Assembly: GCA_002633005.1 (NCBI GenBank)
Contig: NMRA01000219.1
Coordinates: 353,251-417,250 of the forward strand
Reading direction: 5' to 3'
Origin: Phoronis australis
Lineage: Eukaryota > Animalia > Phoronida
Length of the DNA stretch: 64,000 nt
Shown: positions 45,301 to 60,845 of the stretch, one piece after another
How positions within the stretch are numbered: the first letter of the stretch is position 1
Layout: every line of letters starts with the position of its first letter
The notes under the pieces: model-generated
Databases searched by the model: none
The model's input: the letters and a program-made list of their open reading frames with translations, nothing else
Told to the model about the DNA's origin: nothing
Program-made: the position numbers and the translations under genes

Positions 45301-45436
45301 CTACTCTTGGTCCCCCAAAACCGAAGCATAGTTTGCATAGTTTGTTTCTTCGTCCTCTCGTTGAAACTTCTTCAGTCCATCTTTAAACGAATCCCAAGCG
45401 AAAATGTATCTGACACTCAACCAGATCAATTGCGAA
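45301..45436 (-). CDS. GGCX: GGCX-like terminal coding exon 15
   Basis: Strong acceptor CTTCTCTTGCAG; SQLIWLSVRYIFAWDSFKDGLKKFQREDEETNYANYASVLGDQE*. Confidence 0.8.
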
Positions 45437-48400
45437 CTGCAAGAGAAGTGTATATGCTACTTAAGCCTTACAGTCGTTTGAAACAGTACACCAAGTTTGT
45501 TACATCATTCACCGTGGCGTTTAGGTACATGTACCACGCGGTTTCAAGGATAAGATGTGTTGCAACTCATTTGGAAACAACGAAGAGATGCGTTTCTGGA
45601 GCTCCCAAGATTGGTTCATTTTTATTGAATGTGGGGAATTTTAGCTAAAAGGGACCCTTTCGGAGAAATACATGTCTTGAAATTTTTATTCATCTGGTGT
45701 GTTCTTAACTGAGGCATACGGAGGGTATGAAAAGTTCTCAGTATCCCACAATGATTGAATTTACCATTCCATTGGACACGAGCGTAAACGAGACGTTAAC
45801 GTGTCACGTCTCTTTATTATTTTGAGTGAATAATCGTAATGATTGTGTGAGCTTTTTAACTATAACAATATACAGTGTTTGACCCAAAGGCGCTATTTGT
45901 TGCTAATTGCAAGACTACTACCAACCTGCGTTTTGCACATACACAAAATCTTCTGGAAATATGTGTAACTGAATTCCAAAGCTTGAGCGATATGGGAACC
46001 TCCTGCTCTTCCTCTTCTTTCTTTTTTTCTATCAAAGCCTGTTTGTAACGGAATTCGTCCGGATCGTTGTCAGACAGGTCCTCTAAGAACAACGCAGTAA
46101 CGTAACATAAAGTTGTAGAAAATTATAAGTATTGACCTTATTTGACAATTGATGAATGACTTCTTTTGAGAAAAAGATGAAATTCTTTGGTGAAATTGTC
46201 AATTATCAAACACTGAGACAAGACTCGGCATTCACACACAGGTATTTTCGTGCGCTAACACCACGCCGTAAGAATGGCGACCTTGGGTCGTGCACGCAGT
46301 CTCGTTTTTTTAGTGGTAGCTGCTCCTACAACTTTTCCTGAGTTGCTTAAGAATTGTTCAATAGCATCTGAATTCCAGAGGACAGCATGGAGAGACATTC
46401 TCACCGTATGTTTTGTTTTGTGACTTCAGTTTTCTCTCAGTCTCCCTAAGCTTCTTGACAAAATCCACATGCATCTGATTTCCAAAGACGTACATATAAC
46501 ACGACGGAGTCTTGGACGTAGTGTGAGCTGTGTGCTTCCCACTTGGTAACTGAAATCAAAATTGAAACGGTGAATTCACGGCGTCCCTATGAAAGATCAC
46601 GTTGGGGAAGATGGCGAGACAGACTCAATTCTCCCTTACCCGCGATAACGAAATAGCATTGTACAGATCAAGATGTGGCCTTTTCCTCAACTCTGACAAG
46701 TTCAGGCACAACTTTAGTAATGTATCTCCAAACTGTAAATGTGGTGACCACCAATCTTATCCTCATATTTTCTTCAAATGTCCCCTCATCGAATCCCTGA
46801 GAGACTCACTCTTTCGTGCACTCAATGATAACCAATCAGTTGTTAACGCTCTCAATTCTTGTAATAATATCCCTACTAGAGTTACATTATTACTGAATGG
46901 TAGTCCTAACCTTGACTTTGTTCTTAACGAATTCCTCCTAAGCAACGTTAGCAAATTTTTATATACCGTTTATCAATATTGTTGCATCTGATTTCCCTAC
47001 ATGAATCTGTAAATATTTTTGTTTTTATATATCTGTAATAGCATGTCTAAGTATTGGAATACTTATTTTAGATACTACTAATTGTATATATCTCTATGTA
47101 TATAAGTTTCATTTATGAATTGTTTACAACCCAGATATAATGCTTCGCGGTTTCTGGGTTTGTTATTATTTCTTTGTATGTTCTGTGTATCCTTCAATAA
47201 ATATATATCACAGTGAAGAGAGAGGTGATGAAGGCAGTGACGATGATAATGACGATGACAGGTGATGATGGCGGTATAGTACGTTACGTAATGATGATGG
47301 CCGTGCTACATTATGATAGAGTTGGTAAAGGCGACGACAGGAATGGCGCTTGGGCAATGACGATGGTGTTGATAGCGAACAAGACAGATAACGATACGAT
47401 GGTCAGAGGATGTATAAGTTAAAGGTAACATACCTGCAATGTCTCACCCACACGGAGCCTTAATTTTGTCCTGTTCTCTAACTCCACCACAATCCGACCA
47501 TGCAACACTGTAACGCTGGCGTTACCAAACTCCGGGGGGAGATAGTGATCTTTCAGCGACAACCCTGCACCAAGACAGTTTCTATCTCATTAACCTAACT
47601 TCATAGATTTCAGCAAAATTGCAAGTCCTCTCCAAAGAGACCCATGGGGTCATTTCCGGTACGAGGGTACTCGATTTGACGGCGGGTGATTTGAATACCC
47701 ACACCTTTAAAGAGTGGAAGTGAAAAAGAAACCCACTTTCAGGAAGCTAATACGAAAGACATCCGTTTCTAAGGTTTTCTTGATGACTGAACTCCTTGGC
47801 AACCATATAGATTGAACCCAATCCTTTCGTACGCATCTTTGGACAGCTAAAATGTTAATCAGTTAAGCCTGAAACAATAGAAAAGATGCCATGTTGCACA
47901 TCTTATGCAAAGAAAGTTAAAAAATATAGGTAACATCAAAAAAAGACCTGCTTACGGAATTTACCCCTGTAAATAAGTGGTGGTTGCGGAATCAACCCCG
48001 GCCCTATAAATGAGTTCCCTTGTTCGAGTCCCCACTTTAAATGGGTGGTTATACTAATTTTGAAGGTGAACTCCGTCAAAGTATAATCGAGCACCTCTGG
48101 AAGTTAGTACGATAAACACGTGACTACACTGACGTAAAGTAAACCCAACAGTAATAACATGTGATAAGTGAAAATATAACTTGACAAAATGCGTCCACAA
48201 ACTATAAAGATTCCTTTTCGGTTACCACCTGGAAAGTCCGCCACAACGAACGGCACGTGGTCGTATTTGGTTGTTGTTCTCACTTTGCTTTTCACATCGG
48301 CCAGCTTACTGCGCCAGTCCGTAATTTCTGTTAGTAACGGCAACACCCACGGGGTGTTCTTAAAGGGGTGCCACTCTGCTTTAGTAATGTCCACTCTGGG

Positions 48401-60400: not shown

Positions 60401-60845
60401 GTCTGAATTCCACAACTACCTAGAGACGCAAATAACTCGACATCTTTAATTTAGTGTAAACTTCATGTAAGTGAAACGCAAAATGAGTGACTGCGGTACT
60501 GTCCGATGATTTGTATCATGATGGTTTGGGAGGGAGTTTTCATGTCACTTGAATTAACATATCAATCTGCAAAAAGAGTCCATTAATTGAAACGAGTATA
60601 ACGTAGCACACAACGAATAGACAATACAAAATTTGTATACCAAACGCCACTCTTGTGATGGCCAGGCTCGCAGGATCTGTGGGTCGGTGGAGCAGAGCGA
60701 GAAATGATTCCCAACTCGACAAATCTGACCAATCAAATCCAAACAATTGTCTCATCCTGGTTGGTCCATTTTCATGTGATTCTCCGTTAGACTCATTGCT
60801 TGCTGAAGTCAGTCTCTTATTCTTCGAATTCCTTCTCCGCACCAT
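45301..60845 (-). CDS. GGCX: Vitamin K-dependent gamma-glutamyl carboxylase homolog (divergent GGCX-like), 15 coding exons, about 744 aa
   Basis: Exons (minus): 60845-60641, 59609-59463, 59175-59010, 56975-56897, 55339-55233, 53700-53537, 52249-52050, 51578-51453, 49925-49791, 48771-48617, 48410-48229, 47564-47434, 46549-46405, 46082-45926, 45436-45301. All junctions GT-AG with consistent phases; total 2235 nt, open to TAG. GGCX motifs RPTDPASLA, CRFPLF, WNNH, AGLKK, FHLMN, FLPYSHF, YGYSWDMM, FDPRVD, ADFPG, PSCYMY. Alternative in-frame ATG at 60875. Confidence 0.95.
45926..46082 (-). CDS. GGCX: GGCX-like coding exon 14
   Basis: DLSDNDPDEFRYKQALIEKKKEEEEQEVPISLKLWNSVTHISRRFCVCAKR; phase 1 to 2 fits neighbours. 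Confidence 0.82.
46405..46549 (-). CDS. GGCX: GGCX-like coding exon 13
   Basis: LPSGKHTAHTTSKTPSCYMYVFGNQMHVDFVKKLRETERKLKSQNKTY; GTGAGA donor. Confidence 0.92.
46620..47207 (+). mobile_element. 5'-truncated LINE 3' end (CR1/Jockey-like, CCHC zinc knuckle), antisense in GGCX intron 12
   Basis: Intact frame R.RCG..LN...SPNCKCG......HIFFKCP....R...LLLNGSPNL ending 46991; 3' stem-loop AACCCAGA...TCTGGGTT; AATAAA at 47195. Confidence 0.85.
47434..47564 (-). CDS. GGCX: GGCX-like coding exon 12 (cupin-like domain)
   Basis: LSLKDHYLPPEFGNASVTVLHGRIVVELENRTKLRLRVGETLQ; 131 nt. Confidence 0.92.
48229..48410 (-). CDS. GGCX: GGCX-like coding exon 11
   Basis: IFDPRVDITKAEWHPFKNTPWVLPLLTEITDWRSKL...VVADFPG; alternative same-phase donor after 48226. 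Confidence 0.93.
48617..48771 (-). CDS. GGCX: GGCX-like coding exon 10
   Basis: MFTKGRRWPSHPDLVKQLAMCIKSRAANDLGLTNVGLYFDIWRKQTDQFYQR; weak donor AG|GTTTTT but at the conserved position. Confidence 0.9.
49791..49925 (-). CDS. GGCX: GGCX-like coding exon 9 (Glu-substrate binding region)
   Basis: GYNFNWIHGIYGYSWDMMIKPFVTANVKITMLNKENGQESFIPEK; 135 nt. Confidence 0.95.
51453..51578 (-). CDS. GGCX: GGCX-like coding exon 8
   Basis: DTKSPGVTKRSKTGWYHRVVCAGVLLHVTLQLFLPYSHFINK; 126 nt. Confidence 0.93.
52050..52249 (-). CDS. GGCX: GGCX-like coding exon 7
   Basis: LFPWLMIATLPLFCYCDWPK...SSHCIYPKEEIKPDNLPNRKR; donor GTAGGG, phase 0. Confidence 0.9.
53537..53700 (-). CDS. GGCX: GGCX-like coding exon 6
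   Basis: ALLTNEQIDLHIVHHGGFILDLAIGFFLFFDVTRPFAMFFGVLFHLMNSTMFRIG; 164 nt. Confidence 0.95.
53746..53882. mobile_element. MITE (PIF/Harbinger-like)
   Basis: GGCTGCGTTCCGTAGACGC versus GCGTCTACGGATCGCAACC; flanks TTA / TTG. Confidence 0.7.
54069..54670. mobile_element. hAT-like non-autonomous element
   Basis: CAGTGGCGGATCTAGG ... CCCTAAATCCGCCTAT; internal GGGGGGAGGTCGGGAGGGGGG shared with about 18070. Confidence 0.55.
55233..55339 (-). CDS. GGCX: GGCX-like coding exon 5 (catalytic KK)
   Basis: IFVVYFYAGLKKTNYYWLMGYSKKRLSEKLVFAPFR; 107 nt; GTAAGT donor. Confidence 0.95.
56897..56975 (-). CDS. GGCX: GGCX-like coding exon 4
   Basis: SLDGFINKNIRNAHTPLWNIALLRFQ; 79 nt. Confidence 0.95.
57017..57360. 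mobile_element. Degenerate foldback/MITE
   Basis: GTAGAGGCAGTGGTCATC versus GATGACCACCGTCTCTAC within about 50-nt imperfect inverted repeats. Confidence 0.5.
58000..58983 (-). mobile_element. Helentron-type repeat copy (5' part) with (CCGT)n microsatellite
   Basis: Minus strand begins TTTTATTATGCACCAACATAT..ATATGTGGACGCAT then CCGTCCGTCCGT; internal units match 30170-30900. Confidence 0.7.
59010..59175 (-). CDS. GGCX: GGCX-like coding exon 3
   Basis: SIGIMLGLFYRTSAFLFVTCFWYKYVLDIQSWNNHFYLYGLISTILLFADGNRFW; 166 nt; GTAAGT donor. Confidence 0.95.
59463..59609 (-). CDS. GGCX: GGCX-like coding exon 2
   Basis: FLMLPHILRKMTFIDDDWGDYNCRFPLFDFIPIPPLQGIILMNFFMIIG; TTGCAG acceptor, GTTTGC donor; 147 nt. 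Confidence 0.88.
60641..60845 (-). CDS. GGCX: GGCX-like coding exon 1
   Basis: MVRRRNSK...LFGFDWSDLSSWESFLALLHRPTDPASLAITRVAFG; acceptor TTTCAG just upstream of 60878; donor G|GTATAC, phase 1. Confidence 0.9.

What the first reader, a model, noticed from the sequence alone, without database searches (positions are those of the whole stretch)
45301..60845. Intact but remodelled GGCX: candidate neofunctionalised vitamin K-dependent enzyme
Seen: a full 15-exon open frame with no stops. Kept, using remembered human numbering: W157/N159/H160, K217/K218, N290, F299, P378, Y395/W399/M401/M402 and the C99-C450 pair. Changed: DIPQERG to PHILRK, WNNHSY to WNNHFY, KKLDADW to KKTNYYW, GYSM to GYSK, FSIGMF to FRIGLF, MMVHS to MMIKP, WVSINDRFQQR to WRKQTDQFYQR. 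Established: R83, H404 and R476 are human disease-mutation sites, and these motifs are usually conserved even in invertebrate GGCX. Inference: this is a paralog with conserved vitamin K chemistry but altered substrate recognition, possibly different peptide substrates (e.g. secreted toxins) or a different reaction. Several changes add Lys/Arg, hinting at a more basic pocket.
Basis: partly seen in the sequence, partly recalled or inferred. Interest (0 to 1): 0.8.

Follow-up and report, generated by a model that had tools for sequence, protein, structure and literature searches.

The report
Rewired vitamin K carboxylase in invertebrate
An invertebrate animal transcribes an intact gene for the vitamin K-dependent carboxylase that keeps all the catalytic residues named in the human structures but has replaced most contacts that link substrate docking to the vitamin pocket, so it is likely a spare copy, predicted to modify a different and probably acidic set of secreted proteins.

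Summary
Observation confirmed: a 15-exon, 744-residue GGCX with ancestral introns, spliced in 2 of 3 raw-read RNA runs (exons 9-15 tested). The divergence is targeted. All 25 catalytic, vitamin K and glutamate-pocket residues named in human structures are kept, while 43 of 167 other conserved columns change (p=0.002) at ordinary variable-site divergence. The changes hit the network that couples the propeptide clamp to the vitamin K cap (7 of 9, p=0.001; D222-N474-R476 is replaced on both sides, in none of 215 other homologues), E82 that props up His160, and the propeptide groove. The lumenal domain turns basic (+10 against -14 to +1). Freshwater mussels and scallops carry remodelled second copies beside ordinary ones, the mussel one independently. 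Most likely a duplicate that still makes Gla, on other substrates. Paralogy in this genome was not testable, R83 is probably kept, the pocket itself is not more basic, and nothing points to toxins. Not found in print or earlier in this scan. New variant of a known kind.

The parts
60641..60845 (-). Exon 1: start codon, cytosolic N-terminus, start of TM1
   Evidence: its 3' intron equals human c.214
59463..59609 (-). Exon 2: lumenal loop 1; D78H, E82 lost with two-residue deletion, R83 probably kept, C99 kept; most diverged segment
   Evidence: not checked by RNA
59010..59175 (-). Exon 3: W157, N158, N159, H160 kept; S161F, K154I
56897..56975 (-). Exon 4
55233..55339 (-). Exon 5: K217, K218, W223, Y227 kept; cap changes D220N, D222Y, M229K
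53537..53700 (-). Exon 6: D263, F286, H287, N290, F294 kept
52050..52249 (-). Exon 7: M298L, F299 kept; cytosolic loop
51453..51578 (-). Exon 8: TM9, P378 and Y379 kept
   Evidence: join to exon 9 seen as 13 loose-ended reads in X6 that match the exon end
49791..49925 (-). Exon 9: loop LL9 with Y395, S398, W399, M401, M402 kept; T391I, L394I, H404K, one-residue insertion; propeptide groove Y415M, Y425F, L426I, P428E
48617..48771 (-). Exon 10: R436, H440, C450 kept; bridge loop N474T, R476Q, Q478Y
48229..48410 (-). Exon 11: bridge helix, S510T, R513 kept
   Evidence: its 3' intron equals human c.1609
47434..47564 (-). Exon 12: clamp B (jelly roll), more basic than in any panel sequence
46405..46549 (-). 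Exon 13
45926..46082 (-). Exon 14
   Evidence: its 3' intron equals human c.2084
45301..45436 (-). Exon 15, coding part with stop codon; 3' UTR reads continue to at least 45001

Best explanation
This is an intact, transcribed animal GGCX gene that is likely a duplicate, is predicted still to carboxylate glutamate with vitamin K, and has replaced most residues that couple propeptide docking to closure of the vitamin K pocket, so it likely acts on a different, probably acidic, set of secreted proteins. Shown: open frame, splicing of exons 9-15, ancestral introns, full first-shell residue set, loss of the coupling residues and of E82, basic lumenal domain. From human structures: K218/D263 deprotonate the hydroquinone, N159/H160/Y395 hold the glutamate, F299/M401/M402 trap CO2, and D222-N474/R476 and D220-H404-T391 fix the cap when the propeptide clamp closes. 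Inferred: the acid-base contacts were replaced by a new interface (both partners changed together), gating by a standard propeptide is weakened or re-keyed, and the basic cap and clamp attract acidic substrates; an ordinary GGCX elsewhere in the genome would keep the old job.
For: 0 of 22 first-shell columns changed against 43 of 167 other columns conserved at 90% (Fisher p=0.002), and 25 of 25 named first-shell residues match the panel consensus. 7 of 9 coupling residues changed against 36 of 158 others (p=0.001; 7 of 12, p=0.006, if K217/Y379/S398 are counted; residue sets). D/E222-N474-R476 is kept in 211 of 215 other eukaryote-type homologues and the other 4 change one residue; it is also kept in 57 bacterial-type sequences (57, 56 and 51 of 57). 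Net charge of residues 384-605 is +10 against -14 to +1 in 60, the cap +5 against -3 to +2 in 59. Spliced in X6 and X7, absent in X8. Remodelled second copies exist beside ordinary ones in Sinanodonta (adjacent locus tags) and Mizuhopecten, 2 of 2 species where both were retrieved; further ones in Potamilus and Argopecten. The mussel copy arose independently (AU p=0.0004), shares D220N and M229K, loses the same triad, and is 83% identical between two genera.
Against: No second GGCX could be sought in this genome; only one copy lies in the window. No close relative of this form was found, so no dN/dS. D220-T391-H404 is also fully changed in a plainly annotated insect and a placozoan GGCX, so that triad alone does not mark a new function. 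E82A lowers both carboxylation and epoxidation in the human enzyme, and R476 and H404 are disease sites, so the enzyme may simply be weak. No substrate gene or Gla motif in the window. The residue sets were taken from papers after the changes had been seen. No structure of this protein was modelled. 3 of the 5 coding sites listed as variable in RNA change a residue, all beyond exon 11.
Confidence: 0.5

Rival explanations
1. It is the animal's only GGCX, re-tuned together with its own substrates; same reaction, same role.
For: One copy in the window. The tree allows a plain orthologue of a chiton, brachiopod or annelid-grade animal (AU p=0.37, 0.18; sister to Owenia 80/81). Insect, tardigrade and placozoan GGCX also alter the D220 triad. 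Fly GGCX is dispensable in the laboratory (PMC12112360, passages).
Against: None of 52 invertebrate panel sequences breaks more than 9 of about 143 near-invariant columns; the only sequences with many breaks at ordinary background divergence are the mussel duplicates. No reads in X8.
Confidence: 0.2
2. The enzyme keeps vitamin K epoxidation but uses the strong base for another outcome: uncoupled epoxidation, aspartate carboxylation, or proton exchange and epimerisation, because His160 has lost E82 and gained a bulky neighbour.
For: E82 stabilises His160, the coupling residue. E82-H160-S/T161 is kept in 220 of 222 others; the two exceptions are the remodelled bivalve copies. F161, N220 and lack of E82 match bacterial-type homologues (Y/F in 35 of 57, N in 47 of 57), and bacterial MloH carboxylates aspartate (PMC12647623 Discussion). 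Truncated viral homologues are proposed to be epoxidase-only (PMC13486548, passages).
Against: N158, N159, H160, Y395, R436, F299, M401, M402 and H440 are all kept, whereas bacterial-type sequences mostly change Y395, M402 and K217 and the viral ones lack residues 374-418. The mussel and one scallop copy change first-shell residues; this gene does not.
Confidence: 0.18
3. It is a duplicate under relaxed selection, drifting towards loss, with little or no activity.
For: Long branch; several changes at human disease sites; low read depth of about 5-14; residue-changing variants in exons 12-15.
Against: About one substitution per site on its branch without a stop, frameshift or splice loss; first shell untouched (p=0.002); both partners of contacts changed together; variable sites not accelerated.
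Confidence: 0.12

Closest known systems
[quoted passage not shown]
   Same: Domain order, 25 named first-shell residues, C99-C450, K217-Y379-S398, Y227 and R513, four intron positions checked against print; 39% identical to the mammalian proxy P0006.
   Different: E82 and D78 lost, S161F, D220-H404-T391 and D222-N474-R476-S510 replaced, K154I, propeptide groove altered (Y415M, Y425F, L426I, P428E), basic lumenal domain.
Ordinary invertebrate GGCX (Solemya, Capitella, Owenia, Lingula, Liolophura; Conus and Drosophila enzymes from PMC12112360 passages)
   Same: Nearest sequences, 42-45% identical; protostome side of the tree, 100/98.
   Different: They keep the motifs that this gene changes; their end branches are about half as long.
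Unstudied second GGCX copies of bivalves: Sinanodonta KAL3875763.1, Potamilus KAK3590837.1, Argopecten XP_069128480.1, Mizuhopecten XP_021340437.1
   Same: Remodelled at T391 and H404, mostly D220N; M229K shared with the mussels; T391I and L426I shared with the scallops.
   Different: They keep D/E222-N474-R476 and change first-shell residues (N159C, H287N, M402F and others). The mussel pair is a separate duplication (p=0.0004); kinship with the scallop pair is open (support 77).
Bacterial VKGC-like/HTTM enzymes (MloH) and viral vitamin K epoxidase domains
   Same: Vitamin K core; bulky residue at 161, N220, no E82.
   Different: This gene is a full-length, intron-bearing animal GGCX with both clamps and the C-terminal domain, and keeps K217, Y395 and M402.

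Membership tests
Animal GGCX/VKGC family | HTTM domain followed by VKGC lumenal domain, about 750 aa | tested here: met
Animal GGCX/VKGC family | Catalytic base K218 with D263, W223 and the naphthoquinone pocket (V210, F286, H287, N290, F294, F299, M401) | tested here: met
   residues
Animal GGCX/VKGC family | Glutamate pocket N158, N159, H160, Y395, R436, M402 | tested here: met
Animal GGCX/VKGC family | Ancestral intron positions and C99-C450 disulfide pair | tested here: met
   4 of 4 positions given in PMC5343777 passages match
Animal GGCX/VKGC family | Vitamin K-dependent conversion of Glu to Gla | not testable with these tools
   needs an assay
Canonical propeptide-gated GGCX orthologues | Cap-clamp coupling networks D220-H404-T391 and R513-D222-R476-S510 with N474 | tested here: not met
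   7 of 9 changed
Canonical propeptide-gated GGCX orthologues | E82 supporting His160, S161 | tested here: not met
Canonical propeptide-gated GGCX orthologues | Hydrophobic propeptide groove (Y415, Y425, L426, V430, F431) | tested here: inconclusive
   changed but still hydrophobic: M, F, I, M, F
Canonical propeptide-gated GGCX orthologues | Single copy in the genome | not testable with these tools
   no genome held
Bacterial VKGC-like / viral epoxidase-only enzymes | Short form without animal clamp B and C-terminal domain, or without residues 374-418; K217, Y395, M402 not kept | tested here: not met

The most novel reading that the evidence does not exclude
Lophotrochozoan animals have repeatedly duplicated GGCX and cut the propeptide switch, giving the first animal vitamin K enzymes that need no standard propeptide; this one, without E82 and with a bacterial-type F161, would use the vitamin K base on acidic skeletal or secreted proteins for a reaction not known in animals, such as aspartate carboxylation or epimerisation.
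Probability: 0.15. Interest if true: 0.85.

Novelty: new variant of a known kind. Interest (0 to 1): 0.52.

Why it matters
GGCX is described as the sole enzyme making Gla in humans, and its invertebrate substrates are largely unknown (PMC13187478 abstract; PMC12112360 passages). A natural variant with a complete active site but without the propeptide-to-cap coupling residues tests directly the allosteric model drawn from the 2025-2026 cryo-EM structures, including why R476 and H404 cause disease in people. Tissue-restricted duplicates would also be a handle for finding invertebrate Gla proteins, and a carboxylase freed from propeptide control would be useful for making Gla proteins.

Tried and rejected
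Whole-genome search: no genome held. Orthologues of the remodelled form: an exon 3 word search gave 1 canonical fragment among 10 candidates; none of 150 representatives scored better with this protein than with ordinary GGCX; the best 120 of 1006 hits of a mixed profile held no close relative, top identity 45-46%; 2 metagenome loci from an exon 10 search were chance matches, with no tblastn hit to the whole protein. Alternative exons with canonical motifs: none in the window. Horizontal transfer or retrocopy: rejected by ancestral introns. General fast evolution: rejected by ordinary variable-site divergence; ten unnamed or distant representatives break a larger share of columns but at 0.72-0.83 divergence. 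Basic active-site pocket: loops LL1, LL3 and LL9 are not more basic than the panel. Substrate gene nearby: no Gla motif, and no Pfam hit above cutoff in the 150 longest of 253 frames. Run search: no RNA holder listed above a small share. Atlas search with the mussel copy returned only ordinary GGCX clusters. First tree timed out. No structure or complex was predicted. Literature: searches listed no paper on duplicated or remodelled invertebrate GGCX; two key papers were not held; no supplements were read, and their alignments could show such sequences.
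Full report
Gene. Six-frame reading and splice-site inspection gave a minus-strand model of 15 exons from 60845 to 45301, 744 residues, no internal stop, all 14 introns GT-AG. Exon 6 alone matches human GGCX structures at E=1e-12, and HTTM then VKGC_lumenal matches fall on exons 2-11 in order. It is the only GGCX-like sequence in the window, with no alternative canonical exons. 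Four intron positions correspond to human c.214, c.373, c.1609 and c.2084, which are the splice positions implied by mutations listed in PMC5343777 (passages); this is a native animal gene. No genome was held.

Expression. On the stretch holding exons 9-15, raw RNA reads of the same species label join all 6 introns as modelled in X6 and X7 (2-19 reads per joint and run), on the strand expected for a minus-strand gene; X8 has no exon depth; X5 has a contig on exon 12. Thirteen loose-ended reads in X6 match the end of exon 8. No difference is listed in exons 9-11, but 64 rows were not shown. The tissues are unknown.

How odd is it. Human numbering comes from P0006, which aligns to human GGCX without gaps. 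Against 60 ordinary homologues (52 invertebrate or unnamed invertebrate-like, 8 vertebrate, chosen), the protein changes 29 of 155 columns conserved at 95%; panel members, left out one at a time, change 0-9 of about 143. At variable columns it differs at 0.62, inside the panel range of 0.44-0.65. Ten of the 34 divergent representatives examined break a larger share, all at 0.72-0.83 background divergence; only the two mussel duplicates resemble this gene. So constraint has shifted at specific sites.

What is kept. I took functional residues from PMC12647623 (Results and Discussion read), PMC13187478 (Results read) and bioRxiv 2025.02.09.637231 (sections 7-9 and passages). All 25 first-shell residues for vitamin K, CO2 and glutamate match the panel consensus; 0 of the 22 that are conserved at 90% change, against 43 of 167 other such columns (p=0.002). 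C99, C450, H440, Y227 and R513 are kept.

What is changed. The preprint names cap networks R513-D222-R476-S510 and D220-H404-T391, and PMC12647623 adds N474 and Y227. Seven of these nine change: D220N, D222Y, T391I, H404K, N474T, R476Q, S510T (p=0.001). D/E222-N474-R476 holds in 211 of 215 other eukaryote-type sequences, none changing more than one residue, and in nearly all of 57 sequences that I classed as bacterial-type by motif, not by taxonomy. E82, which stabilises His160 and whose loss lowers activity, is gone, with S161F beside His160; 220 of 222 others keep E-H-S/T. K154, which ties the membrane part to the clamp, is Ile. The propeptide groove is altered but hydrophobic. R83 is probably kept. 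Net charge of the lumenal domain is +10 against -14 to +1, and of the cap +5 against -3 to +2, while loops LL1, LL3 and LL9 are not more basic. The residue sets were applied after I had seen the changes, so the p values are descriptive.

Relatives. No orthologue of this form was found. The tree (22 rows, LG+G4) puts it on the protostome side (100/98) with an end branch of 1.06 against 0.24-0.70, outside the gastropod-bivalve group and weakly with Owenia (80/81). Nesting in gastropods (p=0.0005) or pteriomorphs (p=0.017) is rejected; pairing with Lingula, Liolophura or the whole gastropod-bivalve group is not (p=0.18, 0.37, 0.09). An earlier unchecked note calls the animal a likely mollusc; if it is a gastropod or bivalve, the gene would be an old duplicate. 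The representative search found other remodelled forms, named: a Sinanodonta gene whose locus tag follows that of a near-ordinary GGCX, its Potamilus counterpart (83% identical), and second GGCX-like genes in Argopecten and Mizuhopecten, the latter beside an ordinary copy. The mussel pair nests with its neighbour, and grouping with this gene is rejected (p=0.0004); the scallop pair groups with it at support 77 only, possibly by long-branch attraction. All four change T391 and H404, three have D220N, the mussels share M229K, but they keep D/E222-N474-R476 and change first-shell residues. Against over-reading: plainly annotated insect, tardigrade and placozoan GGCX also alter the D220 triad in part or whole, and overlap of changed sites with this gene is also significant for several distant sequences.

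Mechanism. Most likely (0.5) a duplicate that still makes Gla, in which the switch from propeptide clamp to vitamin K cap has been replaced and the lumenal face made basic, fitting acidic substrates with another docking signal. Sequence facts and splicing are shown; residue roles come from the human structures; duplicate status, activity and substrate class are inferred. Rivals: sole re-tuned orthologue (0.2), altered chemistry (0.18; MloH, viral epoxidases from PMC13486548 passages), decay (0.12). Nothing supports toxin substrates.

Novelty. It belongs to the GGCX family by every testable core feature and fails the features of canonical propeptide gating. Eight searches listed no paper on duplicated or remodelled invertebrate GGCX; the library lacks most subscription papers, two key papers were not held, and no supplements were read. 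PMC12112360 (passages) states that fly GGCX is active and dispensable with no classical Gla proteins described; PMC10969987 (one passage) gave nothing. Verdict: new variant of a known kind, interest 0.52.

Noticed in passing
P0135, P0138: Freshwater mussels carry a remodelled GGCX duplicate (in Sinanodonta at the next locus tag to the ordinary gene) with N158H, N159C, H287N and M402F in the active site, conserved between two genera: a stronger candidate for changed chemistry than this window's gene.
   Followed up: partly
P0140, P0176: Scallops carry strongly diverged second GGCX-like genes, 39-40% identical to the ordinary scallop enzyme.
   Followed up: partly
window 50411-50459 (approximate), minus strand: Minor extra exon in intron 8: 5 reads join its donor to exon 9; the likeliest acceptor gives a 49-base exon with in-frame stops, a possible poison exon.
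   Followed up: partly
window 46620-47220: Repeat inside intron 12, read deeply on both strands in all four runs with many variants.
   Followed up: no
window 27626-28063, plus strand: Frame with a Thr/Pro-rich stalk, one hydrophobic helix and a basic tail, like an exon of a single-pass membrane protein; no Pfam hit above cutoff. It follows a tandem duplication of about 1.2 kb at 25381-27500.
   Followed up: no
window 12848-13667, plus strand: Two frames that look like a broken retrotransposon gag (resemblance recalled; no Pfam hit).
   Followed up: no
window 43785-44092 and 33895-34176: Tandem arrays of 30-32 and 47 bases.
   Followed up: no
window 45335, 45940, 46406, 46521, 47459: Coding variants in RNA of other individuals: three change a residue, two sites are silent.
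   Followed up: yes
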